DNA of 64,000 nt from a bacterium. GTDB lineage: Bacteria > JAMCPX01. The DNA is taken from the NCBI GenBank assembly GCA_049966275.1, contig JBMFUY010000001.1, positions 4,780 through 68,779 on the forward strand, read 5' to 3'. The notes beneath the pieces are model-generated. The model worked only from the letters and a program-made list of their open reading frames with translations, was not told the DNA's origin and searched no databases. Shown one piece after another: positions 27,611 through 63,401 of the stretch (positions are counted from its first letter, which is position 1; every line of letters starts with the position of its first letter). The position numbers and the translations under genes were made by a program.

Positions 27611-28567
27611 ATGATACAAACCAAACATGTTGAGAATGTACATCTACCACATGGCCTTAAAAAACATATTAGTTTAAGTGGGGAGGTGCACAGAACAAAG
27701 GTAGTTCTGCGGGCAAACAGGATCCACACAGTGTGTGAATCAGCCCGTTGTCCCAATATCAGCGAATGCTTTGGTATGCATCGCGCAACATTTATGATCA
27801 TGGGAGATATATGTACAAGGGCATGCAGGTTCTGTTCTATTGATAAAGGGCATCCAGCAAAGATTGATCCTGAGGAGCCTTACAGAATAGCTAAGAGTGT
27901 TGCTGAGCTTGGCATAATGCATGCTGTTATAACATCTGTTACCAGAGATGATCTTAATGATGGTGGTGCAGACCACTTTTATAGAACAGTGTGCGTTGTT
28001 AAAGAACTTAATCCAGATGTCACTGTAGAGCTGCTAACCCCGGACTTTAAGGGTAACAGGGACGCGATTATGCATCTACTTGAGGCTGATTTTGAGATAT
28101 TTAATCACAATGTGGAGACTGTACCACGCCTATACAGGGGAATAAGGCCCCAGGCTTTGTATGAACGTTCCATTGAAGTGCTTGGTTTTGTAAAACGTCA
28201 GAAGCGCATCATCATTAAGTCAGGATTAATGGTTGGGCTTGGAGAAACCATGGAAGAGGTAAAGGCTGTACTCAGGGATTTAAAGGAAGTGGGATGTGAT
28301 ATTGTTACCATAGGTCAGTATCTTATGCCAACATCACAGAATATACCGGTTCAGGCATATATAACTCAAGAATTGTATGATGAGTACGAGAGATTCGGTA
28401 GAGAAATTGGCATCCCATTTGTTTATGCCGGTCCTTTTATCAGAAGTTCATACCATGCGCAGGAGATTATGAATAAATTAGTCATTAACCCGAAAAATGC
28501 AATAGGGAAGTTTGCTCATTCGTTCAACCCTGCGATCCACCTAAGATACAAAGACTTTTTGCTGTAA
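27611..28567 (+). CDS. lipA: Lipoyl synthase; the last ~28 codons and the stop are supplied by an inserted MITE
   Basis: Radical-SAM CxxxCxxC (CTRACRFC) plus N-terminal Cys cluster (CESARCPNISEC) and SSYHA motif. The ORF runs into repeat copy 28485..28710 (…MNKLV|INPKNAIGKFAHSFNPAIHLRYKDFLL*). Confidence 0.9.
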   Translation: MIQTKHVENVHLPHGLKKHISLSGEVHRTKVVLRANRIHTVCESARCPNISECFGMHRATFMIMGDICTRACRFCSIDKGHPAKIDPEEPYRIAKSVAELGIMHAVITSVTRDDLNDGGADHFYRTVCVVKELNPDVTVELLTPDFKGNRDAIMHLLEADFEIFNHNVETVPRLYRGIRPQALYERSIEVLGFVKRQKRIIIKSGLMVGLGETMEEVKAVLRDLKEVGCDIVTIGQYLMPTSQNIPVQAYITQELYDEYERFGREIGIPFVYAGPFIRSSYHAQEIMNKLVINPKNAIGKFAHSFNPAIHLRYKDFLL

Positions 28568-28710
28568 AGGAGGCTTAAGTCCTTTGTATGTTTATATGCA
28601 ATCACATTCCGTTTCTTTTTTTCTAATATTCGAAGAATACCTATATTTGACGCGGGGTTATCACTCATTACACAAACTTCCCTATTTCGCAAACGCATTT
28701 TTCGGGTTAA
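28485..28710 (+). mobile_element. MITE-like element, 226-bp form (long form with two internal deletions), copy 2, inserted in the 3' end of lipA
   Basis: Same TTAACCCGAAAAATGCA / TGCATTTTTCGGGTTAA termini, flanked by TTAA. Removing the element and one TTAA restores an in-frame lipA ending …KLVINPQRA*. Confidence 0.8.
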
Positions 28711-37705: not shown

Positions 37706-37808
37706 TTAACCCGAAAAATGCAATAGGAAAGTTTGCTCATTCGTTCGGGGTACCCCATCACTCATTACACAAACTTCCCTATTTCGCAAATGCATTTTTT
37801 TGGGTTAA
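37706..37808 (+). mobile_element. MITE-like element, short (103-bp) near-palindromic core form, copy 3
   Basis: TTAACCCGAAAAATGCAATAGGAAAGTTTGCTCATTCGTTCGGGGTACCCCATCACTCATTACACAAACTTCCCTATTTCGCAAATGCATTTTTTTGGGTTAA; the two halves are imperfect inverted repeats. Confidence 0.8.
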
Positions 37809-41906: not shown

Positions 41907-41919
41907 CTGTTTTTTTCTC

Positions 41920-44238
41920 TTAATCTTCTGTTTTCTCTTTTCTGGTACACAGATATAGAAACAACAAAACAATAAACAATGACAATACAAAGTTAAACAT
42001 TGAACCATTTGTTGTATTGAAAGGTACTGTCCCGCATCCGCCTGTTACACTTGCAGTAACCGTATAATTTATTCCTACAACAGATGAGGTGTTGCCTGCT
42101 TCATCAATAGCCTTTACATAAAGGGTATGATTGCCCACAGGACTGTTCCCAACATCAATGGTATACTCACCAGGCTCAAGTGTAGTAAAAGATGTTTGAT
42201 TGTCAATTGCGTACATCAACCTTGCCTGGGTTACTGCATCTGTAACATTGAATGTAAAATATGGATAATCTGCCTTTGATAAGGTTAATTCCGGGGGCAC
42301 TGTATCCACAGTGAATACAGTTGTATCACCTGTAACTGTTAAGCCTGTTTGCGCATCCCTTATTCTGACCTGAAGTGAATGTTCTCCATCCATCAGGTTA
42401 TCAAGTCTTATCGTTGTATCTGTTGACCATAGTGACCATCCCTGCCATACAGGACCCAAAACAGATTGATCAGAGATTCTCCAGGATATTTCTGCATGCT
42501 CTGGTAAAGCTGTGTTAAGTTTAAACACAACACCTGATCGCGTATTGATAATAGGTTTCATACCATCATTAAGTGACATGATGCTTAATGACCCGGTTGA
42601 AGGGTTGTTGTATGATAGAAATCCAATATGAGGCATTGAGAGGGTGGATAGATTGAGCAGGTTCATAAATCCTGTGACATTAAGGTATACGTTTAGATAA
42701 CCGCCTGATGGCACAATATCCTTTACAAGTACTGTTACGCCACTGAATGTAAATGCAGAACTTATGGTAGGTAAGGCTGTGCCAATAAAGCTTGTTGCAA
42801 GGCTCAAGCCCATCTGGATCACGCTGTTAACATTGGATGGTTTTGTAAGTTCAGAGGCAAGTATAACATCATTTATTTTTATGCCACCCGGGGTACTATC
42901 TATCGCAACAACTATCATTGGATTCCCATTTTGATCAAGTTTGTTTTGATCAAGGTAGACCTCTGCTTTTATAGAAACATTGGCACTTAATACAAAGGCA
43001 TCTGTATACTGTGTGTTGTAGGCTGCACTTGCATCAGGATATGTTTGAGCCTCATCAACCCCTAATAACCCTTCAATAATGATGCCATTGAGCGTTACAG
43101 TATCCCACATATTCTGTGGTGAACCAAGTGTTAGCACCGGTGGCTGTGTAGGTATGATCTTTAAAACGAGTGTTCCGGTACTTGGCAGTTCAGGGATTAA
43201 ACCTTTTAATAACCCAACTGGAAGTGGCGGTGTGGTTATGCACATCATACCGCTTAAGTAAACAGCATACAATGCTTGATTGATCAGATCCTGTGACACA
43301 CCAAAACCAAGCATCACATCTGTTCTGGCTGTGTCAATGGTTGGAGCTGATATGGTTGGTGTAGGTGGAGAGGCTATTGGTAATGGCAGGCATGGCGCGG
43401 GCTCTGTTGCAGGTCCAACCCCTCCATCAAGACTTATATCAGCTGCATTGTTTGTAATATTCAAAGCCTGGTAAAATAAAGATGGCCTGATTTGATATGA
43501 AACAGGTGGATATGTTCCATGAAGATATAGATTGATATTGATACTGCTCAACATCTGGTTTATTTGAGGGATCAGCATAGAATTTATGGCTGAATTAATA
43601 GCGGATGTTATAGAACTCTGTATAAGCGACCATATCGCATCCCATGCCCCTTGGGGAATAGTAATGCCACATACTGTTGGAGGGGATGGCTCTGGTATTG
43701 GTTGTACATTCACACTTGGTGTTCCCACAAGTTTTAACCGTAAATAATGCCCATCTATATAAGGCTCTACGTTTATATTGGCTGATGCATCAGCATTTAG
43801 ATTTGATATGCTAAACCCGCATGTGGTACATAGCCCCAAAGCTACTGCATGCACAACCCCATTAACCTGATTGATATATGCGTGTATATCATTCACAACC
43901 AATGAAATGCTTTGCGTTGCACCGTTCCATGCAAGATTTAGGTTTGGTTGATTGTTGTATTGTCCTGGAATAGTTATCTGAACATTAAATGGATAGATAC
44001 CATAACTAAAGCCAGAAAACCCCCCTGGACAACCAGGGTCAGGTATGCCTGAAAACGGATAGTTCACAGTTAATCCTGTAAAATTCTGAGAGATATAGTT
44101 TAATAGTGCCTGGTATGCGACAATATTGACTGCATTCGGTTCCCACAAAGGTGGTGTTTGTGTATCCGCAACCCCCTTACCACACAAGGAAAAGCTTATT
44201 AAAAATAATCCTATAAAAAGGATAAATAACCTTTTCAT
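41920..44238 (-). CDS. Large secreted cell-surface protein with Ig-like C-terminal domains and a C-terminal sorting-signal-like tail
   Basis: 772 aa; signal peptide MKRLFILFIGLFLISFSLC. C-terminus …TASVTGGCGTVPFNTTNGSMFNFVLSLFIVLLFLYLCTRKEKTED has Gly/Cys motif, TM helix and basic cluster; Big-like VDTVPPELTL. Confidence 0.6.
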   Translation of the reverse strand: MKRLFILFIGLFLISFSLCGKGVADTQTPPLWEPNAVNIVAYQALLNYISQNFTGLTVNYPFSGIPDPGCPGGFSGFSYGIYPFNVQITIPGQYNNQPNLNLAWNGATQSISLVVNDIHAYINQVNGVVHAVALGLCTTCGFSISNLNADASANINVEPYIDGHYLRLKLVGTPSVNVQPIPEPSPPTVCGITIPQGAWDAIWSLIQSSITSAINSAINSMLIPQINQMLSSININLYLHGTYPPVSYQIRPSLFYQALNITNNAADISLDGGVGPATEPAPCLPLPIASPPTPTISAPTIDTARTDVMLGFGVSQDLINQALYAVYLSGMMCITTPPLPVGLLKGLIPELPSTGTLVLKIIPTQPPVLTLGSPQNMWDTVTLNGIIIEGLLGVDEAQTYPDASAAYNTQYTDAFVLSANVSIKAEVYLDQNKLDQNGNPMIVVAIDSTPGGIKINDVILASELTKPSNVNSVIQMGLSLATSFIGTALPTISSAFTFSGVTVLVKDIVPSGGYLNVYLNVTGFMNLLNLSTLSMPHIGFLSYNNPSTGSLSIMSLNDGMKPIINTRSGVVFKLNTALPEHAEISWRISDQSVLGPVWQGWSLWSTDTTIRLDNLMDGEHSLQVRIRDAQTGLTVTGDTTVFTVDTVPPELTLSKADYPYFTFNVTDAVTQARLMYAIDNQTSFTTLEPGEYTIDVGNSPVGNHTLYVKAIDEAGNTSSVVGINYTVTASVTGGCGTVPFNTTNGSMFNFVLSLFIVLLFLYLCTRKEKTED

Positions 44239-44320
44239 TATTTAAGGCTTAACCCATGATATTCAAAAAGTCAAGCGCACGCATCGAGTCTTGTCTTTTA
44301 AACTTGAAAAGTGCACTTCT

Positions 44321-44589
44321 TTAACCCCCAAAAAATGTAATGAGGAAATTTCTTTATTCACCCGGGGTACCCATGCAGAGCATGGATCGTGCGATCCAAT
44401 CGATAGCTATATGTTTCCTTATAGAAACGAGGTTTTAGTCCTTTGTATGTTTATATGCAATCACATTCCGTTCTTTTTTTCTAATATTCGAAGAATACCT
44501 ATATTTGACGCGTGACCCTTCCCTTCGGGTGGATACCCCATCACTCATTACACAAACTTCCCTATTTCGCAAATGCATTTTGGGGTTAA
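44321..44589 (+). mobile_element. MITE-like element, long (269-bp) form, copy 4, with a degenerate left terminus
   Basis: TTAACCCCCAAAAAATG…GCAAATGCATTTTGGGGTTAA; the internal ~170-bp module is shared with copies 1 and 2. The terminal TTAA supplies the stop codon of the adjacent minus-strand gene. Confidence 0.75.
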
Positions 44590-50991: not shown

Positions 50992-51821
50992 CAATGCCTA
51001 AAAAACAAAACTCTGTTATACAGATGACAATCGATAGGTTTATTGCAGACACGTGTTTATCACATGCTGCTGCACTATCTTTTTATACCATATTGTCTAT
51101 CATTCCTCTATTGTTTGTCCTTGTTTCTGTTGGTAGCTATATTGTTGGCTCCACGCATAACTTTTTTCTGTATATAACATCCATTCTAAAACAGTTTATA
51201 CCAGATGTATCAAATGCTGTTATAAATGATGTGGGAAATTTATTAAAAAAACGCAGCACCATAGGAATCGTTGGATTTATATTTCTCTTATTTTCATCTG
51301 ATCTTGCACTGCTTGAAGCAAAACGTTCACTTGATGTGATCTTCAGACTTGAGAAACGTAAAAACCCTTTGTTTATAAAAGGGAAATCCATGCTTGTGAT
51401 CCTTGTAAGCGGTGTATTCATATCATTCTTATTTGTTATTACGCCTTTATTTAAGATCCTGATAAAATTGGACCTATCGTATATAAGTACACCGCTTTAT
51501 ATTCTGGCACGTATTCTATCAAGTCGCGTATTTGCTTTTTTTATGATCTTCTCTTTATTCACATCTGCTTATTACTTCTTACCTTCTAAAAAGATCGGAG
51601 GTAAATATGCTTTTCTGGCAGGAGGGATAACATCCGTACTGTGGACAATTGTAAGGGTATTATTCTCATGGTATATCAAAAACCATTCTAAAATAAATAT
51701 AGTTTATGGTTCTATCGCTGCAATCATTATTGCTATTGTATGGGTCTATTATACATCGCTTATCTTTCTATTTTCTGCTGAATTAGTCTCAAGCATTAAG
51801 GAAAAAATGGAGCTGCATTGA
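50988..51821 (+). CDS. YihY/BrkB family inner membrane protein
   Basis: 277 aa polytopic membrane protein with the YihY signature region (…LSHAAALSFYTILSIIPLLFV…). Confidence 0.8.
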   Translation: MTMPKKQNSVIQMTIDRFIADTCLSHAAALSFYTILSIIPLLFVLVSVGSYIVGSTHNFFLYITSILKQFIPDVSNAVINDVGNLLKKRSTIGIVGFIFLLFSSDLALLEAKRSLDVIFRLEKRKNPLFIKGKSMLVILVSGVFISFLFVITPLFKILIKLDLSYISTPLYILARILSSRVFAFFMIFSLFTSAYYFLPSKKIGGKYAFLAGGITSVLWTIVRVLFSWYIKNHSKINIVYGSIAAIIIAIVWVYYTSLIFLFSAELVSSIKEKMELH

Positions 51822-53286
51822 AGAAGCCATTAAGAGTACCCATTAACCTTAAATACATGCTTCCGGTGGTATTACTTACGATTGTAATAATATCTATTTA
51901 TACTTTATTCATAAGACTCAGCACAGAAAGCGTTTTCAGACAATATCTTGAGGATGAGATAAGGCTGATAATAAACGATGTAAACAAGACAATTACCATT
52001 CATATGCTAAAGGGACAGGGTAAGGACTTTAGTTTTTATCTTTCAAGTCTCTACAATTATGAGATAAAAGATATAATTGCAATAGGCATACTCTCTCCAA
52101 ATGGTAAACCCTTATACCTGTATTCTAAAGACAACATAAAGGGAATAGAAATACCACAGTTAAAAAGCTATCTTAACATGGTAATGATAAAACATCGCAA
52201 CAACATAGAGGTGTTTTATCCTATTAACAATGAGAAGATATGCTATAGGTGTCATGGTTCCGGGAAAACATTGCTTGGGCTGTTATATATAAATACATCA
52301 ACTCAAAGATACAATAAGGCATTTGCAGGGCTTATGGCAAACTGGTTTACCATGAGTGTGGTTATAACTTCGATACTGATATTTTCAATATGGCTCATTA
52401 AACCATTGTTATAGAAAGACCTGTGGAAGAGCTTGTAAATACACTGAAAAGAGCATCAGAGGGTGATCTCTCTGCCAGATCAGGCTTTAAAGAAAACGAT
52501 GAATTGGGTTTTTTAAGTGAACAACTCAATAAAATGCTGGATAGGCTTGCATACAGGGAAGCAGAGTACAAAAGGCTTGCAGAACTACAGCTTCAACAGA
52601 TGGACAAACTTGCATCTCTTGGAGAGATATCCCTGTCTCTTGCACACGAGATAAGGAATCCATTGGCTGGTATAAGCGGTGTTTTACAGGTGTTCAAAGA
52701 TGACTTTGTTACTGACCAGGAGCGATCCGCTATTTTCACACAACTTATGGCTCAGATAAATAAAATAGATAGGCTTGTCGGGGATATGTTAAAATTTGCA
52801 AAATTCCCTTCGCACGGCATCTCAACCTTTAACATAAATGAGAGCATAAAAACATTAAAACAATTGCTTTCCCCTCAAGCTTCAACCAATCATGTAACCG
52901 TTACATTAGACCTTGATGACAGTATGCCGGATATTGCAGAGGATAGAGATGCATTTGAGCAGGCGATCCTCAATCTTATGCTCAATGCAATACAGGCAAT
53001 GCCCGATGGAGGTGTACTGAATGTCACAACAGAATTTACAGATAAGTTTGGAGAACCGTATATCTTAATAAAAGTCAGTGATACAGGTAAAGGTATACCT
53101 CAGGATATAAAAGATAGGATCTTTGATCCATTTTTCACAACAAAACGAGATGGTACAGGGCTTGGACTCGCAATAAGCCTGAATGCTATAAGGACAATGA
53201 ATGGCAGCATAACCTTTGAATCTGAAGAAGGAAGAGGCACCACGTTTTTTTTACGGGTGCCTTACAGAAGTGCTGGAAAAAGATAA
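51818..53286 (+). pseudogene. Sensor histidine kinase (periplasmic sensor–TM–HAMP–HisKA–HATPase) interrupted by a -1 frameshift at ~52410
   Basis: ORF 51818..52414 carries TM1–sensor–TM2 and ends …IWLIKPLL*. ORF 52423..53286 in another frame carries HAMP (…ASEGDLSARS…), H-box (SLAHEIRNPLAGI) and the HATPase G-boxes. One missing base in 'ttata' would fuse them. Confidence 0.65.
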
Positions 53287-53340
53287 AAATTGCATTTTTA
53301 CAACAAACATGGAACAGTATATTTAAGATAGGATAATACT

Positions 53341-54686
53341 ATGGGCACAGTACTTATTATAGATGATGAGCAGCTTGTAAGGTGGTCTATAGAGAAGCTT
53401 CTCTCAAAAGATGGACATGAGATCATTTCAGCAGACACAGGAGCAGCGGGACTTTTAAAGTTGAAGGATAGTACGCCTGATATAGTATTACTGGACATGA
53501 AATTGCCGGATATCGATGGTATAGAGGTATTACGCACAATAAAGAAAGACACGCCAGAGCTGCCTGTTGTTATAATAACAGCATACGGTAGTATAGATTC
53601 TGCAATAGATGCTATAAAAAATGGTGCCTTTGATTACATTGTTAAGCCATTTGACGCAGAAAAACTCAAGTTGACTGTGAATAGGGCGCTGGAACTTTTC
53701 AAGCTGAAAACAGAGCTTGAGATATTTAAGGATAAAGCACATAATCAGTATGGATTCCATAGGATCGTTGCTGAATCAACAGCAGTTAAGCAGGCAATAG
53801 ATATAGCAAAAAAGCTCGCAATGAGTGACACCACAGTATTGATCCAGGGTGAGAGTGGAACAGGAAAAGAATTGTTTGCAAGGGCAATCCATTGTGCGAG
53901 TCCCAGGCAGGATAGTGCGTTTGTAGATCTTAACTGTTCTGCTATCCCGGTGCATCTCATTGAAAGTGAACTGTTTGGCTATGAAAAAGGGGCTTTTACT
54001 GATGCAAAAACCTCAAAAAAAGCTTATTTGAGCTTGCAGATAAAGGCACTTTATTCCTTGATGAGATAGGAGATATGGATCTTTCAACCCAGGCAAAATT
54101 ATTACGTGTTATTGAAACAAAAAGCTTTAAGAGGCTTGGTGGTACAAAGGATATAACAGTGGATGTGAGGATTATATCAGCAACGAACAAGGATCTGAAA
54201 AAACTGGTAGAGAAAGGCGCATTCAGGGATGATCTGTATTACAGGATCAATGTTGTCCCCCTTGTCATCCCTCCTTTACGAAAAAGAAAGGACGATATTC
54301 CATTGCTTGTTAATTATTTTATAAATGTTATTTCAAAGGATCTGAAAAAAGAGGTTACAGGTATTGAGAAGGAGGCACTGGATTATCTGATAAGATACGA
54401 TTGGCCCGGCAATGTGCGGGAGTTAAAAAATGTTGTAGAGAGGATGATACTTCTCACAAACACAAAGGTTTTGACCAAAGAGTTTATACCTATAGAACTA
54501 ATGGAATCCAATGCTGATACAGACGCAGAGCAATTTAACACTCTGGAGCTTGAAAAGGTGGAAAAGGAACTCATAATAAAGGCTTTATCACTTGCAGAGG
54601 GCAATCAAACAAAAGCAGCTCGGGCGTTGTCCATATCAAGGGATGCATTAAGATATAGGATGAAAAAATACAATATCAAACAATAG
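53341..54686 (+). pseudogene. Sigma-54-dependent response regulator (REC–AAA+ sigma54 activator–HTH, NtrC family) interrupted by a -1 frameshift in an A7 run at ~54016-54022
   Basis: ORF 53341..54069: REC (LIIDDE…DIVLLDMKLPDIDG), Walker A GESGTGKE, GAFTDA (variant of GAFTGA), then out-of-frame tail. Shifted frame reads …KKSLFELADKGTLFLDEIGDMDLSTQAKLLRVIE…, continuous with ORF 54075..54686 (arginine finger, Fis-type HTH). Confidence 0.7.
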
Positions 54687-54691
54687 ATTTT

Positions 54692-56032
54692 ATGGCTGAA
54701 AAGGATATTGAGTTTGTATGCAGTGCGTGTTCGTATTCTTCTGCAAAATGGCTTGGTAGATGCCCAAATTGTGGAGAATGGAATACGTTTGTCCAGGTTT
54801 CTCATGAGAAGATAACAAAAAAGCCATCAAAAGATAGCCACAGTATAAAATTAAAATCAATAAGTTCAGAGACAAAAACCAGACTTTCAACAGGCATGGA
54901 GGAGTTTGATAGGGTACTCGGGGGTGGTATAGTAGAAGGTGCACTAATACTTATAGGTGGGGATCCAGGTATAGGTAAGTCCACACTTGCCCTTGCCACA
55001 ATGGATGCTATTGCCAGGCAGAATGTCCGTGTTCTGTATGTTACAGGAGAGGAATCGCTTCAACAGTTGAAACTCCGTGCAAACAGGCTCAATGTAAGTG
55101 AGGATATAGATGTGCTTGCTGAAACCGAACTTGATACAATCCTCAATGTTATAGAGAAAGATAAACCCGAGGTTGTTGTTATTGACTCAATTCAAACAAT
55201 GGAAAGTTCTACAACATCAGCACCAAGAGGAAGTGTAGCACAGCTTAAAGAGATCACTGATAGGCTTATGAGATTTTCAAAGCAAAACAATATAAGCTTT
55301 CTTATAGTGGGACACGTAACAAAGGAGGGGGTAATAGCAGGTCCGAAGCTACTTGAACATATGGTGGATACTGTCCTGTATTTTGAGGGTGATAGAAATA
55401 CCAGCTACAGGATACTTAGAGCTATTAAGAACAGGTTTGGTTCTACCAATGAAATAGGGGTTTTTGAAATGACAGAGCAGGGGCTTATTGAGATCAAAAA
55501 TCCCTCAAAGCTATTTCTTTCAGACAGTGTTCAACCAAGGGATGGCTCAGCAGTATTTGCGAGTATTGAAGGAACAAGGGCATTACTGGTAGAGATACAA
55601 TCACTTGTTACACAGAGTTATCTTGCAATGCCCAGGAGAACAACTGTTGGGGTTGATCAAACAAGATTGTCAATGCTTGTTGCTGTACTTGATAAAAAGG
55701 CTGGATTCAACCTTGGTGGTCATGACATATATATAAACGTGGTTGGTGGTGTTACCATTGATGAGCCTGCGTCTGATCTGTGTGTGGTATCTGCACTTGT
55801 ATCAAGTTATAAAAGAAAACCATTACCATCAAATGCTGTTTTTGTAGGAGAAATTGGTTTAACAGGTGAGGTAAGGGCTGTTGGAATGATAGAAAAACGC
55901 CTGAAAGAAGCACAAAAATTAGGTTTTAAAAGGGCGTACGTACCAGCAGGCAATTCCAGGGCTATTAAGGTACATGATATAGAGGTTATCGAGATAGGTA
56001 ATATTGACTCTTTACTTGAACAGGCATTTTAG
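54692..56032 (+). CDS. radA: DNA repair protein RadA/Sms
   Basis: 446 aa; N-terminal C4 zinc finger (CSACSYSSAKWLGRCPNCGEWNTF), RecA-like Walker A GDPGIGKST, KNRFG motif, Lon-like C-terminal domain. Confidence 0.93.
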   Translation: MAEKDIEFVCSACSYSSAKWLGRCPNCGEWNTFVQVSHEKITKKPSKDSHSIKLKSISSETKTRLSTGMEEFDRVLGGGIVEGALILIGGDPGIGKSTLALATMDAIARQNVRVLYVTGEESLQQLKLRANRLNVSEDIDVLAETELDTILNVIEKDKPEVVVIDSIQTMESSTTSAPRGSVAQLKEITDRLMRFSKQNNISFLIVGHVTKEGVIAGPKLLEHMVDTVLYFEGDRNTSYRILRAIKNRFGSTNEIGVFEMTEQGLIEIKNPSKLFLSDSVQPRDGSAVFASIEGTRALLVEIQSLVTQSYLAMPRRTTVGVDQTRLSMLVAVLDKKAGFNLGGHDIYINVVGGVTIDEPASDLCVVSALVSSYKRKPLPSNAVFVGEIGLTGEVRAVGMIEKRLKEAQKLGFKRAYVPAGNSRAIKVHDIEVIEIGNIDSLLEQAF

Positions 56033-56282
56033 ATAACCCGTTCAATCCGGACAGGTAGGCTGTCCGATAATCAAAGATCATTATTGTGAGCGTCAGTGAA
56101 GCAATTCCTCTGTATGCTGGTAGATTGCTTCGTCGCTTCCACTTCTAGCAATAACATTCTTGGGCAGTCTGATAAAAGGAGCGCCCTGCAAAAGGTAGAA
56201 CAGTGTATTTAATCCCCCATGCCGCTTTTTAAAAAAAGGCTTTCTTCTGATTTCACACTATATAAGATGCTCCTGCACGTGC

Positions 56283-56312
56283 TTGACAACTACCAGTGTA
56301 AAGATTTATTAT
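56283..56312 (+). promoter_or_regulatory. Candidate sigma-70-type promoter upstream of the TPR gene
   Basis: TTGACA – 18 nt – TATTAT about 30 nt upstream of the TTG start at 56344. Confidence 0.3.
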
Positions 56313-56343
56313 CCTATTTAGAGCCTTATAAAGGGGATATATT

Positions 56344-59331
56344 TTGGCTGGAGTAGACAAAAACAAATTAATAGAAAGTGCTAATAAGTTTATAGCCAGG
56401 AATCAACCTGACAAGGCTATAAAGGAACTGCAGAGGGTTTTAGAATTAGAACCTAAGAATACCCAGATTGCTCTTAAAATAGCAGAACTTTTTTTAAAGC
56501 TTAATAACAAAGAAGAAGCCATAAAACACTACGAAATAGCCTCTAACATATTCAGGGATAGTGGTTTCTATGATAAGGCTATAGCTGTTTTCAGACAGAT
56601 ACTAACCCTTAATCCTGTTTCAGCCCAGGCGTACATAAAACTCGCAGAACTTTTCAGGAAAAAGAATTTAATTGCAGAGGCAGTATCAAACTATAAGGTT
56701 GCCATAGCTATCTATGAGAAAGAGGGTAAACCTCAGGAAGCATTAAAAATACTACAAACAATAACAGAATTAGAGCCTTCCAACCTGCCAGGACGCATGA
56801 AGCTTGCAGAACTATACATAAAGAATGGTTTGAAAGAACAAGCATATACAGAACTTTCCAGGATTGCAAACAAACTTATAGAAGCGAGAAGGGTGGTAGA
56901 CCTTATCACTGTTTACGAAAAGATGCTTTCTATCAAACCGGGTGAAATAAGCATAATTAAAGAGCTTATAAAGTTGTACCTATCAAGGGGTGACTACCAG
57001 AAGGTGTTGCTAAAAGTAAAGGATATTATTGCATCAGGAAATTCTGATACAGATGTACTCTTAGCATTGGCAAAGGCTTATACTGCTCTTGACAAAATTC
57101 CACATGCAATATCTGCCTATAAAGAGGTAGCCAAACTATACTCAAAAGCAGGGCTTGAGGATGAAGCAGATAACATTTATAAAAAGATCCTGGAGCTTGA
57201 TCCAACTGATCAACAGGCATTGCAGAAGGTTGTGAAGGTAAAGGTAGAACCACAACCAGTAGAGGAGATCATACCTCAACCCATAGAAACAAAAGAGGAA
57301 AAACCTAAAATACAGGTACAAGAACAACCAGCCAAACCACCTGAGACTTTTGTAGAAAAAGAGAAAAAACAGGTTGTTGAGCAAAGAAAACCGGTTGTTG
57401 AGCCTGCAACACAGATCAGTTCTGTTAAACCAGAGGTTGAGAAAAAAGAAAAACCATCAACAGAAGAAATTGAAAAGCTATTTTCAGAAGCAGAGGTTTA
57501 CAAACGATATGGGCTAAGTAATAAGGCTGAAGAAAAGTTCAAACAGATTCTCGAAATCAGTCCTCACAATAGAAAGGCATTAATTAGTCTGTTTGAGATC
57601 TATGAAGCCAGCAAACGATTTAGTGAGGCTTCAGGACTGGCAGAGAAACTATACAACGAGCTGATCGCTGATGGAGAAATAGAAAAGGCAGAGGATTTTG
57701 TTAAACGGGCAATAGCAAACGATCCCGGTAATGAGGTGTTGAAGGCGCTTATAGGTTACACACCAGAAGAAGAAAAACCATCAACTGAATTTGAGGAATT
57801 AAAACCGCATGAAGAACCACCTGTATCTGTGGAGGTGCCGGTTGAAGAGAAACGTGTTGAACCACCTCCTTCACCCACTCAGCAACAGCCAGTAGAAGCA
57901 CCTTATAATCAGGAAATCCCTTCAACTTCAGAAGAAACAGAAGTCAGTCAACAGATAGATACTGGTATAGAAATAGAGGTTGAACCTTCTGCTCCACCAC
58001 CAGAGGCTTCTGCAGAAGAGGTAAATGTTGAAATACCTGTCGTAAATATAAATGAACAGGCTCAAGAGGAAAAAATCGCAGGAGAACAGGTTAAAGAAGA
58101 AGTTCCGATCCCGGATCAGATCAATTTCGCGCCTGAATTAACCGAAGAAAGAGAAGAAGTAAATGTTACTGCGGATCAGAAACAGGTACAGGAAGATGAA
58201 ATAGGTATTAGTTTCTCAGAAGAGGAATTTGAAACAGGAAAAGAGGACTATATTCCTCAAGAGGAAAAAGAAAAGCCTCCCATCATAGAAAAAGAAGAAA
58301 AACCTCTGGATATTGATATTGTTGATGCGTTGGATGAAGCAGAATTTTATTATCAACAGGGTATCCTATCTGAAGCAAAAGAAATCTTACAAAAGGTGCT
58401 CAAGTTAGCACCCAATGAGCAAAGGGCTAAAGATAGACTCGCAGAGATACTCGCCAGAGAAGAGGCATCAAAACCACAGGTTGAATCAATCCCTTCTGAT
58501 TTAGATGAGTCATTCATTCAGAAAGAGGCTGATCATGTTGTGGTTGCTTCCTCGGATGAAGGATTATTTGATCTGGCACAGGAACTTGAAAAAGAATTAG
58601 CCGTAAGTTCTATAACACAGGAGGTACAGCAGCCTTCTGAGGAAGAACAGCAAATAAGTGTTGAAGAAGTGCTTGAGGCTTTTAAGAAAGGTGTTGAGAA
58701 GAGCGTTGACAAGCAGGATGCAGAAACACATTACAATCTTGGCATAGCGTATAAAGAAATGGGGTTGCTGGATGAGGCTATAAATGAATTTAACATAGCA
58801 ACCCTTTCACCTGAAAAGAAAGCAGATGGATTAATAATGCTTGGAATGAGCTATATGGGAAAAGGTTTGCCTGGCAAAGCGATAGAGATGTACAAACAGG
58901 CTCTGGAGGCAAAAGGCGGTATAAAGCCAGAGAACATAGGATTGCTTTACGAATTTGCTATAGCTTATGAAGCCTATGGGGATATGCAGAATGCCTATAA
59001 CTATTATGATGAGGTGCGCAAGATTGATGAAGGCTTTAGAGAGGTAAAAGTCAAATTAGAGCAGCTTAAAAAGTTTATTGAAGAACAATCAGCAGAAAAA
59101 CAGGTTACGGATGAACAGTCTGAGAAATTCACCCTGGACAGTTTATTAAAGGAAGAAGATTTAATAGAAACTCCAGAGCATAACACTCGTGAGGAAAAAG
59201 AAGAGGTAATCGTTTCTAAGGAACAGGAGGCACCAATCGAGGTAACTAAATTTGAGGAACCGAAAACACCAGAAGAAAATATGAAACAGGACAAGGTAAA
59301 GCCAGCAAAGAAAAAGGTATCATATATTTAA
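56344..59331 (+). CDS. Large TPR-repeat protein with Glu/Pro/Lys-rich low-complexity central region
   Basis: 995 aa, probable TTG start; TPR repeats at both ends (…AIKELQRVLELEPKN…; …AETHYNLGIAYKEMGLLDEAINEF…) flank a ~400-aa acidic Pro/Glu-rich segment. Confidence 0.75.
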   Translation: MAGVDKNKLIESANKFIARNQPDKAIKELQRVLELEPKNTQIALKIAELFLKLNNKEEAIKHYEIASNIFRDSGFYDKAIAVFRQILTLNPVSAQAYIKLAELFRKKNLIAEAVSNYKVAIAIYEKEGKPQEALKILQTITELEPSNLPGRMKLAELYIKNGLKEQAYTELSRIANKLIEARRVVDLITVYEKMLSIKPGEISIIKELIKLYLSRGDYQKVLLKVKDIIASGNSDTDVLLALAKAYTALDKIPHAISAYKEVAKLYSKAGLEDEADNIYKKILELDPTDQQALQKVVKVKVEPQPVEEIIPQPIETKEEKPKIQVQEQPAKPPETFVEKEKKQVVEQRKPVVEPATQISSVKPEVEKKEKPSTEEIEKLFSEAEVYKRYGLSNKAEEKFKQILEISPHNRKALISLFEIYEASKRFSEASGLAEKLYNELIADGEIEKAEDFVKRAIANDPGNEVLKALIGYTPEEEKPSTEFEELKPHEEPPVSVEVPVEEKRVEPPPSPTQQQPVEAPYNQEIPSTSEETEVSQQIDTGIEIEVEPSAPPPEASAEEVNVEIPVVNINEQAQEEKIAGEQVKEEVPIPDQINFAPELTEEREEVNVTADQKQVQEDEIGISFSEEEFETGKEDYIPQEEKEKPPIIEKEEKPLDIDIVDALDEAEFYYQQGILSEAKEILQKVLKLAPNEQRAKDRLAEILAREEASKPQVESIPSDLDESFIQKEADHVVVASSDEGLFDLAQELEKELAVSSITQEVQQPSEEEQQISVEEVLEAFKKGVEKSVDKQDAETHYNLGIAYKEMGLLDEAINEFNIATLSPEKKADGLIMLGMSYMGKGLPGKAIEMYKQALEAKGGIKPENIGLLYEFAIAYEAYGDMQNAYNYYDEVRKIDEGFREVKVKLEQLKKFIEEQSAEKQVTDEQSEKFTLDSLLKEEDLIETPEHNTREEKEEVIVSKEQEAPIEVTKFEEPKTPEENMKQDKVKPAKKKVSYI

Positions 59332-59343
59332 AAAGGAAACGCA

Positions 59344-60414
59344 ATGAATTATTTAGATTTTTACAAACTGAAAGAAGAACCCTTCTCAAGTGCACCGGAT
59401 ATTAAGTTTTATTATAACAGTGCTCAACACTCAAAAGCACTTGTAAGGTTGATGTACGCAATTGATTCAATGAAAGGTCTTGCACTATTAATAGGTGATA
59501 TTGGAACCGGAAAAACCACGCTTGCAAGACGCATGCTTGATAGCCTGCCTGAAGAAGAATATGAATCAGCATTACTTGTTATTATCCATTCCGGAATCAC
59601 AGCTGACTGGCTTCTCAAAAAGATAGCAATGCAGCTTGGTATTGCTGAGCCTTCTGAAAACAAGATCACACTCTTATCACAACTGTATGAGCGATTGAAT
59701 GAATTGTATGAACAGCATAAAAAGGCAGTGGTCTTAATAGATGAAGCGCAGATGTTAAAAACAAAAGAGATGATGGAGGAATTTAGAGGGTTATTGAATT
59801 TAGAAGCCCCTGATAGAAAGTTGATCACCTTTGTGTTTTTTGGTTTACCAGAGATAGAAGAAAATTTACTGCTTGATAGTCCACTTGCCCAGCGGGTAGC
59901 ACTTAAATATAGATTGGAATCTTTAAACTATGAGTCCACAGAGGCTTACATAAAACACAGATTAGGGCTCGCGGGGAACAAGGATGAAATATTCACACCT
60001 GATGCTATTGAGAAGATCCATAAGTATTCAAAAGGCATACCAAGGATGATCAATATCATATCCTCAAATGCCTTATTTGAAGGGTTTCTTGTTAAGGCTA
60101 AGGTTATAGATGGTAAGATTATAGATAGTGTTGCTGCAGATTTAGGCGTAACAGGAGAACAGATAGAAAAAAGAGAAGCGCAGGTGAATGAAGAGATCAA
60201 AGAACAACCCATTGTTGAACCTACCAGACAGGTTACGCAGGAGCCTGTTAATGAAAGGGTAAAACAAACACAGGCAAAAGCATCAACAATACCATCCCCT
60301 CCACCAAAATCTGAGGTGACAGCTCCAAAACCTCCTGAAACAAAGCCAAAACAACAGAAACAGGAAGAGGATGAAATTGATTCTATCCTTGATAAGCTTG
60401 AAAAAGGCGGTTAA
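59344..60414 (+). CDS. ExeA/GspA/MshM-like AAA ATPase
   Basis: 356 aa; Walker A GDIGTGKTTLARRM, Walker B VVLIDEAQ; Pro/Lys-rich C-terminal tail. The TAA stop lies inside the TTAA terminus of the adjacent MITE. Confidence 0.75.
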   Translation: MNYLDFYKLKEEPFSSAPDIKFYYNSAQHSKALVRLMYAIDSMKGLALLIGDIGTGKTTLARRMLDSLPEEEYESALLVIIHSGITADWLLKKIAMQLGIAEPSENKITLLSQLYERLNELYEQHKKAVVLIDEAQMLKTKEMMEEFRGLLNLEAPDRKLITFVFFGLPEIEENLLLDSPLAQRVALKYRLESLNYESTEAYIKHRLGLAGNKDEIFTPDAIEKIHKYSKGIPRMINIISSNALFEGFLVKAKVIDGKIIDSVAADLGVTGEQIEKREAQVNEEIKEQPIVEPTRQVTQEPVNERVKQTQAKASTIPSPPPKSEVTAPKPPETKPKQQKQEEDEIDSILDKLEKGG

Positions 60415-60512
60415 CCCCAAAAATGCGTTTGCGAAATAGGGAAGTTTGTGTAATGAGTGATGGGGTACCTCGAACGAATGAGCAAACTTTCCTATTGCAT
60501 TTTTTGGGTTAA
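60411..60512 (-). mobile_element. MITE-like element, short (102-bp) core form, copy 5, inverted orientation
   Basis: Reverse complement matches copy 3 almost base for base; TTAACCCCAAAAATGC…GCATTTTTTGGGTTAA. Confidence 0.8.
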
Positions 60513-60620
60513 GATAGGACAGTCAGGTTTAAAGGAAAGAAGAACAGAATAAAAGTTTTTTCCTTTTACGCTTGACATAAAAAGGGTTTTTAAATAAAAG
60601 ATAAATAAAGGAGGTAGAGT

Positions 60621-62102
60621 ATGAACAGAAAAAAATTAGTATTATCTCTAACCGTGGTTGTTGCATCATTGGTGAGTATGTTGTTCGTGGTTTCACCGGG
60701 TTTTGCTGATCTTCTTAGCGCTTCTAGTTTTAAGTTTGGAGGGTATTACAGGGTAAGGCAGATATACTACCATGATCTTACAGTATATCAGAATCCACTC
60801 AATACTTCATACTTTGATCAGAGGTTCCGTCTTGAACCACAAATAAATGTTAACGAGGACATCATCATAAAGTCGCAGATAGACATGCTTGATGATGTAT
60901 TATGGGGTGATAATGTGGATCCGGATAACTCCATAAATACTGGTAATCCTACAAACAACTCTGCTTATTATCCATACGGTGTAACCACACCGGATGGTAC
61001 ATCGCTCCTGAATATCAATGTTAAAAGGGTATGGCTTGAGTACAATTCTCCTTTTGGACAGTTCTCCATAGGACGTATGCCCTATGGCTTTGGACTTGGT
61101 ATACTTTACAATAATGGAGATGGGTTTAAGAATGAATGGGGAGATGCATATTATGGGAACACAGCGGATCAGATACAGTTTGCAACAATGCCAATGGGCA
61201 AGGAAGGACCATTGATCACAGTACTTAACTATGCAAAGATAAAAACAAACAATATTAACAATCCATACGATGATGATGACTGGTATTCGTTTATCCCGGG
61301 TTATACTTCAAAGAAGGCAACTGTACTGGTGCTTTTACAACACCAGGAACAAAACTCCTTTAAAAAGTATATTAACCTTGCAGAGCTTTATGCTGATTTA
61401 ACACCAATAGAAAACCTGAAAATACAACTTGATTACTTCTACATAAGTGGTCACCTTATGCCATTTTTAGCAGGAACACCATCTGCTACAACATTAAAGA
61501 CAGTTATTGGAACAGATGAACTGAAGGTAATGGATGCACAGGGCGGTGTTTTAAGGGGTAGTTACAGTATGAGCCCAATGGAATACGCTTTAGAAATTGG
61601 TTTTTCACCGGCTAATGGCACAGCCAAAAATGGAGTAGAAACATATCCATTCAGCAATGATTACAATTCAAGCCTTATACTGTTTAACAATACAGGGCTT
61701 GCTTCTCAGGGCATATTTCAGAATGCAACACTTGTTGGACTTAATACAATAGCAGGTCCTAACAATCCTATACCACCTCAATCAGCAATGAAAGATGACT
61801 TTATATACATTGCACCAATGGTAAAGTTTATCCCGGCAGACTTCCTGAAGATGAAACTTCAGTATCTATACGCTGAAACAAACGATTTTACAAACTATGC
61901 TGCCCTTATGGGTAGACAGCCAGGCAAGAATGCCCGTGACCTTGGTAATGAGGTTGACTTTGGGGTTGACACAACACTTTCGGACAAATTCATATTTGGT
62001 TTCCAGACAGGTTACTTTATGCCAGGTGCAGTATTCAAGGATGCAAATAATTACGCGGCAAGCATATTCTCATTCCAGACAAGGTTTACGGTTCTGTTCT
62101 AA
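60621..62102 (+). CDS. Outer-membrane beta-barrel porin-like protein; by context a candidate phosphate-selective porin
   Basis: 493 aa; signal peptide ending …SPGFA, beta-rich alternating pattern, C-terminal aromatic residue (…RFTVLF). AGGAGG RBS 6 nt upstream. Adjacent to pstS. Confidence 0.55.
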   Translation: MNRKKLVLSLTVVVASLVSMLFVVSPGFADLLSASSFKFGGYYRVRQIYYHDLTVYQNPLNTSYFDQRFRLEPQINVNEDIIIKSQIDMLDDVLWGDNVDPDNSINTGNPTNNSAYYPYGVTTPDGTSLLNINVKRVWLEYNSPFGQFSIGRMPYGFGLGILYNNGDGFKNEWGDAYYGNTADQIQFATMPMGKEGPLITVLNYAKIKTNNINNPYDDDDWYSFIPGYTSKKATVLVLLQHQEQNSFKKYINLAELYADLTPIENLKIQLDYFYISGHLMPFLAGTPSATTLKTVIGTDELKVMDAQGGVLRGSYSMSPMEYALEIGFSPANGTAKNGVETYPFSNDYNSSLILFNNTGLASQGIFQNATLVGLNTIAGPNNPIPPQSAMKDDFIYIAPMVKFIPADFLKMKLQYLYAETNDFTNYAALMGRQPGKNARDLGNEVDFGVDTTLSDKFIFGFQTGYFMPGAVFKDANNYAASIFSFQTRFTVLF

Positions 62103-62121
62103 CAAATTACGAAAGCATCAT

Positions 62122-62158
62122 AAAAAAACGCCTCGTGTGCTCACGAGGCGTTTTTTTA
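62122..62158. terminator. Bidirectional rho-independent terminator between the porin gene and pstS
   Basis: aaaaaaaCGCCTCGTG-tgct-CACGAGGCGttttttt: perfect 9-bp stem with A-run and T-run. Confidence 0.85.
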
Positions 62159-62207
62159 TAACAAAAGCACAAACGTAAAGATAACCCAGCCTTAATATTT
62201 GCTGTTG

Positions 62208-63257
62208 CTATTTTATACTAACACCCTTTAACTGTTCTTCTATCCTGTGTATAATCCTCTCAGGTAAGGGAACATAGTCAAGTGAGGCTGCCATCTTTTG
62301 CCCTTCATCTGAATATATCCATTTGATAAATTCTACGAGCGCCTTACCTTTAACCGGGTCATGCTGATGTTTGTATATTATAAGATAGGTAAACCCTGCT
62401 ATTGGGTAAACATCCTTTCCTTCCGGGTTTATAAACATAATATTGAAATCATCGGGTATGCTTTTTACTGTTGCTGCAGCTGCTCTGCACGATTCAACAC
62501 TGGGAAAAACAAAATAGCCGGATTTATTCTTAACAGCTCCATACGCCATATTATTTTGTAACACATAAGCAAGTTCCACATAACCAATACTACCTCTTGT
62601 CTTTGAAACAAAAGCAGCCACCCCGGGATTCCCTTTGCCGCCTATTCCAGTGGGCCAGTTTACAGATATAGCACTCCCAACCTTTTTTGCCCATTCAGGG
62701 CTTACACTGCTCAAATAAGAAGTAAATATAAATGTAGTTCCGCTCCCATCTGACCTGTGAACAACAACAATAGGAAGATTGGGTAGTTTAATATCCGGAT
62801 TAACTGATTTTATCCTCGGATCATCCCAGGTTGTAATTTTACCAAGATAAATATCCGCCAATATCTGTGGTGTAAACTTTAATCCCTTACCAACACCTGG
62901 AATATTATAAGCAATAGCCACACCCCCAGCAACATCAGGCATCTGAATGAGCCCATACTCCTTTAGCTCTTTTTCATTAAGTGGTGCATCGCTTGCACCA
63001 AAGTCAACGGTCTTTGCCCTGATCTGCTGTATACCTCCACCACTACCTATAGGTTGATAATTGATCTTGATGCCTGTCCTTTTTTCGTACTCATACGACC
63101 ATTTTGATAATAATGGGTAAACAAATGTAGAACCAGCACCGCTCAGCGTCACATTCTGTGATTGACCTGCAAATACAGGATGTGAAAGTGATGTTAAGCC
63201 CGGAACAAGCACTGCAAATACCAGAATGGCAACACCACTCAGCCGTTTTATCTGCAT
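62208..63257 (-). CDS. pstS: Phosphate ABC transporter substrate-binding protein PstS
   Basis: PBP2 PstS-type motifs (…LSGAGSTFVYPL…; …GSGGGIQQI…; …SDGSGTTF…). Start placed at the internal Met MQIKRLSGVAILVF…, which has a GAGGA RBS; the track ORF extends to 63350. Confidence 0.8.
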   Translation of the reverse strand: MQIKRLSGVAILVFAVLVPGLTSLSHPVFAGQSQNVTLSGAGSTFVYPLLSKWSYEYEKRTGIKINYQPIGSGGGIQQIRAKTVDFGASDAPLNEKELKEYGLIQMPDVAGGVAIAYNIPGVGKGLKFTPQILADIYLGKITTWDDPRIKSVNPDIKLPNLPIVVVHRSDGSGTTFIFTSYLSSVSPEWAKKVGSAISVNWPTGIGGKGNPGVAAFVSKTRGSIGYVELAYVLQNNMAYGAVKNKSGYFVFPSVESCRAAAATVKSIPDDFNIMFINPEGKDVYPIAGFTYLIIYKHQHDPVKGKALVEFIKWIYSDEGQKMAASLDYVPLPERIIHRIEEQLKGVSIK

Positions 63258-63401
63258 AATCCTCAGCCTTATACCCGCTACCAGATACAGGTATTTACTC
63301 TTTAACTTTAGTTTTAATCTTTTCATTTTTTTTCCTCCTTGCTTATACATTAAGCTGCGTGTGTAAAACCTGTATTACAAATAGGTATAATATGGGTAAA
63401 T

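What the first reader, a model, noticed from the sequence alone, without database searches (positions are those of the whole stretch)
51818..53286. Cognate sensor kinase also frameshifted
The sensor kinase is split exactly between TM2 and the HAMP domain (…IWLIKPLL* then TIVIERPVEELVNTLKRASEGDLSAR…). Restoring one base in 'ccattgttatagaaag' (ttata to ttaata) fuses the two ORFs.

Two independent -1 lesions within 1.7 kb, in both partners of the same sigma-54 two-component pair, argue for real pseudogenisation of the pathway rather than random sequencing error. They could also mark a locus under on/off switching. The target regulon is unknown.
Basis: seen in the sequence. Interest (0 to 1): 0.5.

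Follow-up and report, generated by a model that had tools for sequence, protein, structure and literature searches.

The report
Frameshifted heme-sensor kinase, real segregating allele
A membrane sensor kinase of an uncultured bacterium is broken by loss of a single C, and near-identical assemblies show this is a real allele, one of three disabling mutations circulating in this kinase/regulator pair; this is ordinary recent gene decay, not a switch or a sequencing error.

Summary
The split is real. ORF 51818-52414 (TM1, periplasmic sensor, TM2) and ORF 52423-53286 (HAMP-HisKA-HATPase) are two halves of one 489-aa histidine kinase.

One C is lost between 52400 and 52401 (ATT ACA ACC to ATT A-A ACC, Thr195). 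All orthologues read WLIT(T/M)IVIE there.

Five other MAGs of the same species (99.7-99.9% nt identity) settle error versus mutation:
- The same deletion is in two of them, and the intact C is in three.
- The regulator lesion (GG to G at 54022) is in five of six assembled haplotypes.
- A third lesion occurs in three, probably four, of those MAGs: a 216-bp MITE inserted at TTAA 52224-52227, just upstream of the invariant CxxCH heme motif.
- No assembled haplotype is free of all three lesions.

dN/dS against a sister species is 0.05-0.07, like era and radA, so the decay is recent. Neither lesion lies in a repeat tract, and the kinase overlap has no slippery site, so switching and recoding are unsupported.

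Short reads cannot phase the kinase and regulator lesions, so their co-occurrence in one cell is unproven. The regulon remains unknown.

The parts
51818..52414 (+). Kinase N-terminal fragment (198 aa): TM1 (about residues 14-32), periplasmic PAS/Cache-like sensor, TM2 (about residues 176-197). It ends at a premature TAG created by the frameshift.
   Evidence: ORF list. Weak PF21563 hit. AF2 model with pLDDT 81, with long terminal helices flanking a mixed alpha/beta (PAS-like) core. Foldseek hits to the GSU0935/GSU0582 sensors.
52241..52255 (+). CYRCH, a CxxCH c-type heme attachment motif in the periplasmic sensor (C142, C145, H146).
   Evidence: Invariant in 39 homologues down to 16-24% identity. 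Aligns to the CxxCH of PDB 3b42.
52224..52227 (.). TTAA target site, empty in the window. A 216-bp MITE is inserted here in sibling MAGs, truncating the kinase after residue 137 plus 7 foreign codons.
   Evidence: Contig tails and heads of L083, L084, L089 and L090 carry MITE ends flanked by duplicated TTAA. They are 69/70 identical to the reverse complement of the copy at 28490-28705, and the translation stops.
52400..52401 (+). Site of the single-base deletion: the C of Thr195 codon ACA is lost, giving ATTA|AACC. This is the actual kinase lesion.
   Evidence: Base-by-base alignment with L080, L082, L087 and L089, which have the C, and with L090 and L092, which lack it.
52402..53286 (+). Kinase C-terminal reading frame: HAMP, HisKA (H-box His at 52645-52647) and HATPase_c. 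The first possible start is GTG 52423, with no Shine-Dalgarno sequence.
   Evidence: Pfam HAMP 4.7e-9, HisKA 6.5e-12, HATPase_c 2.7e-26. Translation.
53341..54069 (+). Partner response regulator, N-terminal fragment: receiver domain and first half of the sigma-54 AAA+ domain.
   Evidence: Pfam Response_reg 7.6e-31; Sigma54_activat profile positions 1-89.
54022..54022 (+). Regulator lesion: GG to G, removing the conserved Gly codon of KKG(L/M/I)FELAD, immediately after an A7 run (54015-54021).
   Evidence: L092 has AAAAAAAGGC and an unbroken 385-aa reading frame running to the contig end. All relatives have KKG.
54075..54686 (+). Partner response regulator, C-terminal fragment: rest of the AAA+ domain, lid and Fis-type HTH.
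   Evidence: Pfam Sigma54_activat profile positions 105-167, AAA_lid_14, HTH_8.
28490..28705 (-). Resident copy of the MITE subfamily that is inserted into the kinase in sibling assemblies (TIR CCCGAAAAATGCA, TSD TTAA).

Best explanation
What the locus is. It encodes an ordinary transmembrane sensor histidine kinase: TM1, a periplasmic PAS/Cache-like domain with a covalent c-type heme site, TM2, HAMP, DHp and the catalytic ATPase. It is paired with an NtrC-type sigma-54 activator and sits in a conserved era-der-yihY-HK-RR-radA gene run.

What happened. In the window, the C of codon Thr195 (ACA) at the cytoplasmic end of TM2 is lost. Translation shifts frame and stops seven codons later. The result is a membrane sensor stub with no transmitter, and a HAMP/kinase reading frame with no proper start or membrane link.

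Why it is not an error. The deletion is a genuine allele segregating in a natural population. It is one of at least three independent recent loss-of-function mutations in the pair:
- the kinase 1-nt deletion;
- a MITE insertion upstream of the heme motif;
- a 1-nt deletion in the regulator.

Inference. The pathway is dispensable, or its loss is favoured, in this habitat, and it is at an early stage of pseudogenisation.

Shown and inferred. The alleles, their recurrence and the domain architecture are shown. Heme binding, loss of signalling and the selective regime are inferred.
For: 1. Split and domains.
2. Exact lesion: and one search show a C present in L080, L082, L087 and L089 and absent in the window and L090. 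L092 also lacks it. NCBI protein records show the 287-aa half on 3 contigs, including one of 69,709 bp that also carries the 198-aa half.
3. All 13 close orthologues (58-99% identity) are single ORFs reading WLIT(T/M/I/E)(I/T)V at the junction.
4. Across the roughly 23 kb covered by the sibling contigs (2 to 7 contigs deep depending on position) there are about 90 variable sites. Apart from the kinase and regulator deletions, the only indels are one in-frame 3-nt deletion and three indels that appear to lie in non-coding sequence. One of those, at 63326, falls inside the window's longest ORF but upstream of the start called in the sibling MAGs.
5. The MITE junctions have a TTAA duplication at 52224-52227 in L083, L084, L089 and L090. 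Contigs of GCA_049700495.1 break at the same 5 bases. The element is identified.
6. The regulator lesion is shared by L080, L082, L089 and L090 and is repaired in L092.
7. dN/dS against sister species L081: kinase 0.068, regulator 0.050, compared with era 0.062, radA 0.084 and der 0.128. With one base restored, each gene is fully open.
Against: - All six assemblies are MAG consensus sequences. The window's MAG and four of the five others share a locus-tag series (ACP5xx), so they are probably one study and possibly one community sampled repeatedly. Independence of the samples is therefore limited.
- Short reads cannot link sites 1.6 kb apart, so the window's double-mutant haplotype may be a chimera of single mutants.
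- All four combinations of MITE and deletion occur at 174 bp distance. This needs recombination, recurrent mutation or assembly mixing.
- No reads were available to measure allele frequencies.
- Heme attachment and the signal sensed are untested.
Confidence: 0.8

Rival explanations
1. Sequencing or assembly error in the window. The kinase is intact in the organism and the missing C is a consensus artefact.
For: Three sibling assemblies have the C. MAG consensus sequences can carry indel errors. The window also differs from most siblings at an intergenic A7/A6 run (56231).
Against: The identical deletion is present in contigs of two other MAGs (L090/L091 and L092). It is not in a homopolymer. 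Indels are very rare elsewhere in the 23 kb compared. The sibling contigs break at a 216-bp repeat, which indicates short-read assemblies (inference), and these do not make systematic single-base deletions.
Confidence: 0.05
2. Chimeric consensus. Both lesions are real alleles, but they sit in different cells of a mixed population, with the kinase deletion in one lineage and the regulator deletion in another. On this reading, 'both partners broken in one genome' is an assembly product.
For: L092 links the kinase deletion to an intact regulator. L082 links an intact kinase to the regulator deletion. SNP patterns across assemblies are mosaic. One MAG (GCA_049967435.1) contains contigs of two haplotypes (L083 and L092).
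Against: L090 also carries the kinase deletion and the regulator deletion on one 10-kb contig, as the window does. Recombination in the population could produce true double mutants. Either way, every observed haplotype has at least one disabling lesion.
Confidence: 0.3
3. Reversible on/off switching (phase variation), or programmed frameshifting that still yields full-length kinase.
For: Both alleles coexist in the population. The regulator lesion creates an A_AAA_AAA heptamer in the correct register for a -1 slip, which would give KKS-LFELAD.
Against: There is no tandem or simple-sequence repeat at either lesion. The kinase overlap between the frames is only 52402-52411 and has no X_XXY_YYZ motif (read from the sequence). 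All orthologues are single ORFs. There is no stimulatory RNA structure downstream of the regulator A-run (z = +1.2). The MITE insertion shows that the kinase tolerates irreversible loss.
Confidence: 0.03

Closest known systems
Periplasmic c-type heme PAS-like sensor domains of Geobacter sulfurreducens chemoreceptors GSU0935 and GSU0582 (PDB 3b42, 3b47; Pfam PF21563)
   Same: Single periplasmic domain between two TM helices. The invariant CxxCH sits at the equivalent place (sequence match to 3b42 over the motif). Foldseek hits are E 1.9e-5 to 1.9e-3. More distant homologues of this kinase carry PF21563. These Geobacter domains bind one heme c and form PAS-fold swapped dimers (PMC3460858 abstract).
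   Different: The output here is a HAMP-histidine kinase, not a methyl-accepting chemotaxis module. The Pfam score for the window protein is below the gathering threshold (21.4 against 27). Heme binding was not tested.
NtrB/NtrC-class sigma-54 two-component systems (AtoS/AtoC, ZraS/ZraR)
   Same: The transmitter is most similar to AtoS and ZraS. The regulator is most similar to AtoC and NtrC, with receiver, sigma-54 AAA+ and Fis-type HTH domains.
   Different: All NCBIfam scores are far below the equivalog cut-offs (for example AtoS 215 against 646, AtoC 484 against 714). The sensor domain is unrelated to those of AtoS or ZraS. The sigma-54 contact loop reads GAFTDA rather than GAFTGA in the whole clade.
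Recent loss-of-function polymorphism of regulatory genes by frameshift and IS/MITE insertion in bacterial populations (general knowledge, for example agrC, lasR and bvgS variants)
   Same: Several independent disabling alleles at one signalling locus, with otherwise intact reading frames and a long history of purifying selection.
   Different: It is seen here in an uncultured environmental lineage, from MAG consensus sequences only. There are no phenotype or frequency data.
Simple-sequence-repeat contingency loci (phase variation)
   Same: Both frame-intact and frame-broken alleles coexist.
   Different: There is no repeat tract. The changes are a lone C within ACAACC and a GG dinucleotide.

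Membership tests
Transmembrane HAMP-containing sensor histidine kinase (HisKA/HATPase_c) | HAMP, HisKA with phospho-acceptor His, and HATPase_c, in that order | tested here: met
   Pfam HAMP 4.7e-9, HisKA 6.5e-12, HATPase_c 2.7e-26. The H-box SLAHEIRNPLAGI is invariant.
Transmembrane HAMP-containing sensor histidine kinase (HisKA/HATPase_c) | Sensor, TM2 and transmitter on one polypeptide | tested here: not met
   In the window the frame breaks at 52400/52401 and stops at 52412-52414. The feature is met in the sibling allele L082 (489 aa) and in all orthologues.
GSU0935/GSU0582-type periplasmic heme-c sensor (PF21563) | Conserved CxxCH heme attachment motif in the periplasmic domain | tested here: met
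   C142, C145 and H146 are invariant in 39 sequences.
GSU0935/GSU0582-type periplasmic heme-c sensor (PF21563) | Sequence membership above Pfam's gathering score | tested here: inconclusive
   21.4 bits against a cut-off of 27. phmmer to 3b42 gives E 0.025. Homologues at about 35% identity do carry PF21563.
GSU0935/GSU0582-type periplasmic heme-c sensor (PF21563) | PAS-like fold similar to 3b42 and 3b47 | tested here: met
   AF2 model with pLDDT 81. Foldseek 3b42_B E 1.9e-5 and 3b47 E 1.9e-3. The rmsd is high, as expected for domain-swapped crystal dimers.
GSU0935/GSU0582-type periplasmic heme-c sensor (PF21563) | Covalently bound heme | not testable with these tools
   Needs protein expression and spectroscopy.
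Sigma-54 enhancer-binding response regulator (NtrC family), the partner gene | Receiver, sigma-54 AAA+ and HTH_8 domains | tested here: met
   One search finds them across the two fragments. The repaired protein aligns end to end with intact orthologues of 447-449 aa.
Sigma-54 enhancer-binding response regulator (NtrC family), the partner gene | Canonical GAFTGA loop | tested here: not met
   GAFTDA in the window and in all 8 relatives. It is a conserved variant in this clade and not a lesion.
Frameshift pseudogene (real mutation) | Lesion reproducible in independent assemblies, with an intact allele or orthologue available for comparison | tested here: met
   The deletion is in 3 MAGs and the intact base in 3 MAGs. 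Orthologues are intact.
Phase-variable contingency locus | Hypermutable simple-sequence repeat at the site of frame change | tested here: not met
   TRF finds nothing in 51700-54800. No short repeats at the lesions. The lesion context is ACAACC.
Programmed ribosomal frameshift | Slippery heptamer in the frame overlap, and conservation of the two-frame arrangement in relatives | tested here: not met
   The kinase overlap 52402-52411 (ACCATTGTTA) has no X_XXY_YYZ motif (sequence). Relatives are single ORFs.

The most novel reading that the evidence does not exclude
Loss of this heme-sensing sigma-54 pathway is being actively selected in the population. Three independent disabling alleles (kinase ΔC, kinase MITE insertion, regulator ΔG) have risen to assembly-level frequency on different backgrounds, and no assembled haplotype keeps both genes intact. 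This follows a long history of strong purifying selection. It would be a natural case of parallel adaptive inactivation (a soft sweep) of a redox or gas sensor in an uncultured, probably hot-spring, lineage.
Probability: 0.25. Interest if true: 0.5.

Novelty: new member of a known kind. Interest (0 to 1): 0.3.

Why it matters
- For annotation. The two halves are deposited as separate proteins, a 'hypothetical protein' of 198 aa and an 'ATP-binding protein' of 287 aa. They should be one frameshifted pseudogene.
- For biology. A regulatory pair can start to decay through several simultaneous loss-of-function alleles, including a mobile MITE. A MAG consensus can make such polymorphism look like a fixed double knockout.
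- For the sensor family. The intact alleles define a conserved, uncharacterised clade of heme-c sensor kinases paired with GAFTDA-type sigma-54 activators.

None of this is surprising to a specialist.

Tried and rejected
1. Sequencing error. Rejected because the same deletion recurs in other assemblies.
2. It fuses the ORFs but gives KPLL, where every homologue has T(T/M)IV.
3. Phase variation. No repeats.
4. Programmed frameshift. There is no slippery site in the kinase. In the regulator, the A_AAA_AAA heptamer exists but has no downstream structure, and relatives are in frame.
5. Regulon search with TGGCAC-N5-TTGCW. There are 48 hits at up to 2 mismatches against 35 +/- 5.5 expected. The one perfect hit lies inside an opposite-strand gene. 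There are no hits at up to 1 mismatch with GG/GC kept, either within +/-10 kb of the pair in seven relatives or in window 40-64 kb.
6. More haplotypes from JGI metagenomes. 0 matches.
7. Literature by accession. Nothing found.
8. Rfam on the whole window. No family reached threshold.
9. Other split genes in the window. The ten small adjacent ORFs tested are all complete domains.
10. GTDB representative genomes. The best hit was only 76% identical, so the species itself is not represented there.

Full report
**Observation.**
The window has two same-strand ORFs, 51818-52414 (198 aa, frame 2, ending IWLIKPLL*) and 52423-53286 (287 aa, frame 1). Frame 1 is already open from 52402 (TIVIERPVEEL...). 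Pfam finds only a weak periplasmic-sensor hit in the first piece (PF21563, 21.4 bits). The second piece has HAMP (from its sixth residue), HisKA and HATPase_c. The neighbouring NtrC-type regulator is also cut, inside its sigma-54 AAA+ domain (53341-54069 / 54075-54686).

**Where the lesion really is.**
A search with the artificially fused protein found full-length single-ORF orthologues of 471-496 aa (58-85% identity). It also found a 99%-identical partial protein, P0008. All of these read WLIT(T/M)IVIE(R/K)P across the junction. The contig encoding P0008 (L080, GCA_049700495.1) is 99.93% identical to window 52224-62282. It differs in the kinase by one extra C: CATTACAACC against CATTAAACC. 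The deletion itself creates the TAA that closes frame 1 just upstream of 52402.

**Population evidence.**
Exact-protein look-ups with the flanking genes retrieved contigs from five MAGs of the same species. They are 99.7-99.9% identical to the window. Protein records show that the window's own source is a sixth MAG. Its contig is 69,709 bp, and the halves are annotated as a 198-aa hypothetical protein and a 287-aa ATP-binding protein.

Base-by-base comparison gives this table:

| Assembly (locus) | MITE at 52224-52227 | Kinase C at 52400/52401 | Regulator G at 54022 |
|---|---|---|---|
| window | empty | deleted | deleted |
| GCA_049969915.1 (L082/L087) | empty | present (489-aa kinase) | deleted |
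| GCA_049700495.1 (L085 + L080) | contigs break exactly at TTAAC | present | deleted |
| GCA_049971705.1 (L086 + L089) | MITE junction | present | deleted |
| GCA_049968555.1 (L084 + L090) | MITE at both junctions | deleted | deleted |
| GCA_049967435.1, contig L083 | MITE junction | not covered | not covered |
| GCA_049967435.1, contig L092 (2.3 kb) | empty | deleted | intact |

The kinase deletion is thus seen in three MAGs and the intact base in three. No assembled haplotype is free of all three lesions.

Across the roughly 23 kb compared there are about 90 variable sites. Apart from the two frameshifts, the only indels are one in-frame 3-nt deletion and three indels that appear to lie in non-coding sequence. 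One of those, at 63326, falls inside the window's longest ORF but upstream of the start called in the sibling MAGs. Ten small adjacent ORFs tested elsewhere in the window are all complete domains, and the ORF map shows no other obvious split gene. Disruptive changes are concentrated in this one gene pair.

**The third lesion.**
Contigs L083 and L084 run 69-70 nt past ...CCTATTAA into foreign sequence. Contigs L089 and L090 begin with 69 nt of foreign sequence before TTAACAATGAG. These ends match the two termini of the reverse complement of a 216-bp element present in the window at 28490-28705, at 69/70 and about 67/69 identity. The element belongs to a MITE family with TIR CCCGAAAAATGCA and a TTAA target duplication. 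The window holds four further copies: 12950-13208, 37711-37802, 60416-60507, and a one-ended remnant at about 44534-44589. The insertion stops the kinase after residue 137 plus seven foreign codons. That is just upstream of the CxxCH motif.

**The regulator lesion.**
Relatives read TCA AAA AAA GGN (A/T)TG TT(C/T) GAG, giving SKKG(M/L/I)FE. The window reads TCA AAA AAA GC TTA TTT GAG. L092 has the second G and an unbroken regulator reading frame of 385 aa that runs to the end of its contig. The lesion is GG to G at 54022.

**Age.**
With one base restored, each gene is a clean ORF. Pairwise dN/dS against the sister species L081 (80.6% nt identity) is 0.068 for the kinase and 0.050 for the regulator. 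The neighbours give 0.062 (era), 0.074 (yihY), 0.084 (radA) and 0.128 (der). The pair was under strong purifying selection for essentially the whole divergence, so the lesions are very recent.

**What the system is.**
- The kinase transmitter is AtoS/ZraS-like and the regulator is AtoC/NtrC-like. None reaches an NCBIfam equivalog cut-off.
- The periplasmic domain carries an invariant CxxCH in all 39 aligned homologues.
- It matches the GSU0935 sensor (PDB 3b42) around that motif.
- Modelled with AF2 (pLDDT 81), its best solved-structure matches include the heme-c sensors GSU0935 and GSU0582 and extracytoplasmic PAS domains of WalK and KinD.
- The Geobacter domains bind one c-type heme (PMC3460858).

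I infer a periplasmic heme-based redox or gas sensor. This is not tested. The gene order era-der-yihY-HK-RR-radA is conserved in the sister species. The kinase TTG start overlaps the yihY stop.

No convincing sigma-54 promoter was found near the pair, in the window or in seven relatives. The regulon stays unknown.

**Mechanism of inactivation.**
The following is inference from established two-component-system architecture.
- The ΔC allele yields a 198-aa membrane stub: sensor plus TM2, with three wrong residues (PLL) after Lys195.
- The HAMP-DHp-CA frame has no start before GTG 52423 and no Shine-Dalgarno sequence. Any reinitiated product would lack the conserved Pro and the start of HAMP helix AS1, and would have no link to the sensor. 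Signal-dependent phosphorylation is therefore lost.

**Rivals.**
- Random sequencing error is very unlikely, given recurrence in other assemblies and the non-homopolymer context.
- Chimeric consensus is a real caveat. The two deletions are 1,622 nt apart. L092 and L082 each carry only one of them. One MAG holds two haplotypes. All four MITE-by-ΔC combinations occur at 174 bp distance. The window's double knockout may therefore be a composite, although L090 shows the same combination.
- Phase variation and programmed frameshifting are unsupported. There is no repeat tract. There is no slippery heptamer in the 10-nt kinase overlap. The regulator A_AAA_AAA heptamer is in register for a -1 slip, but it has no downstream structure and is not conserved as a two-frame arrangement.

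**Verdict.**
The finding is a real, correctly spotted frameshift whose exact position needed correcting. It is ordinary early pseudogenisation of a two-component system, made somewhat more interesting by three coexisting loss-of-function alleles and an active MITE. The most novel reading still open is selection for loss of the pathway. Read-level allele frequencies and phasing would decide it.

Noticed in passing
window 12950-13208, 28490-28705, 37711-37802, 44534-44589, 60416-60507: A MITE family with terminal inverted repeats CCCGAAAAATGCA and a TTAA target duplication, in size classes of 92, 216 and 259 bp. It is evidently still mobile, since one copy is polymorphically inserted in the kinase in sibling MAGs. 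No transposase gene was recognised in the window, although most ORFs were not screened. No Rfam match.
   Followed up: partly
window 27611-28567 (+) and 28490-28705: The lipoyl-synthase-like radical-SAM ORF runs 78 nt into a MITE copy, so its last 26 or so codons and its stop are supplied by the element.
   Followed up: no
window 29639-29654 (+): A perfect sigma-54 -24/-12 consensus, TGGCACCTGGGTTGCA. It lies inside an opposite-strand ORF (28733-29812) with no plus-strand gene downstream, so it is probably chance.
   Followed up: partly
window 53995-54012 and relatives L001-L007, L081: The sigma-54 contact loop of the regulator reads GAFTDA instead of the canonical GAFTGA, in the window and in all eight relatives. 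It is a conserved variant in this clade.
   Followed up: no
window 41093-44582: About half of all SNPs between the sibling MAGs, plus an in-frame 3-nt indel (43840-43842), fall in the Big_13-domain surface protein gene (41920-44238), the upstream end of the adjacent OmpA-domain gene (40449-42008) and the intergenic region beyond. This is a local hotspot of diversity.
   Followed up: no
window 56231: An intergenic A7 (window, L088) against A6 (other siblings) length polymorphism between radA and the TPR gene.
   Followed up: no
window 52224-52401; loci L080, L082, L089, L090, L092: All four combinations of MITE present or absent and C present or deleted occur only 174 bp apart. The possible causes are recombination, recurrent mutation, precise excision or assembly mixing. 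This is unresolved.
   Followed up: partly
window 54489-54495; L092 end and L088 start (GCA_049967435.1): A second contig break inside the regulator gene in one sibling MAG. There is no TTAA site there, and the cause is unknown (possibly the end of a strain bubble).
   Followed up: no
window 51818-53286 (source record): The public annotation lists the two kinase halves as separate proteins, a 198-aa 'hypothetical protein ACP5MB_00250' and a 287-aa 'ATP-binding protein', rather than as one pseudogene.
   Followed up: yes
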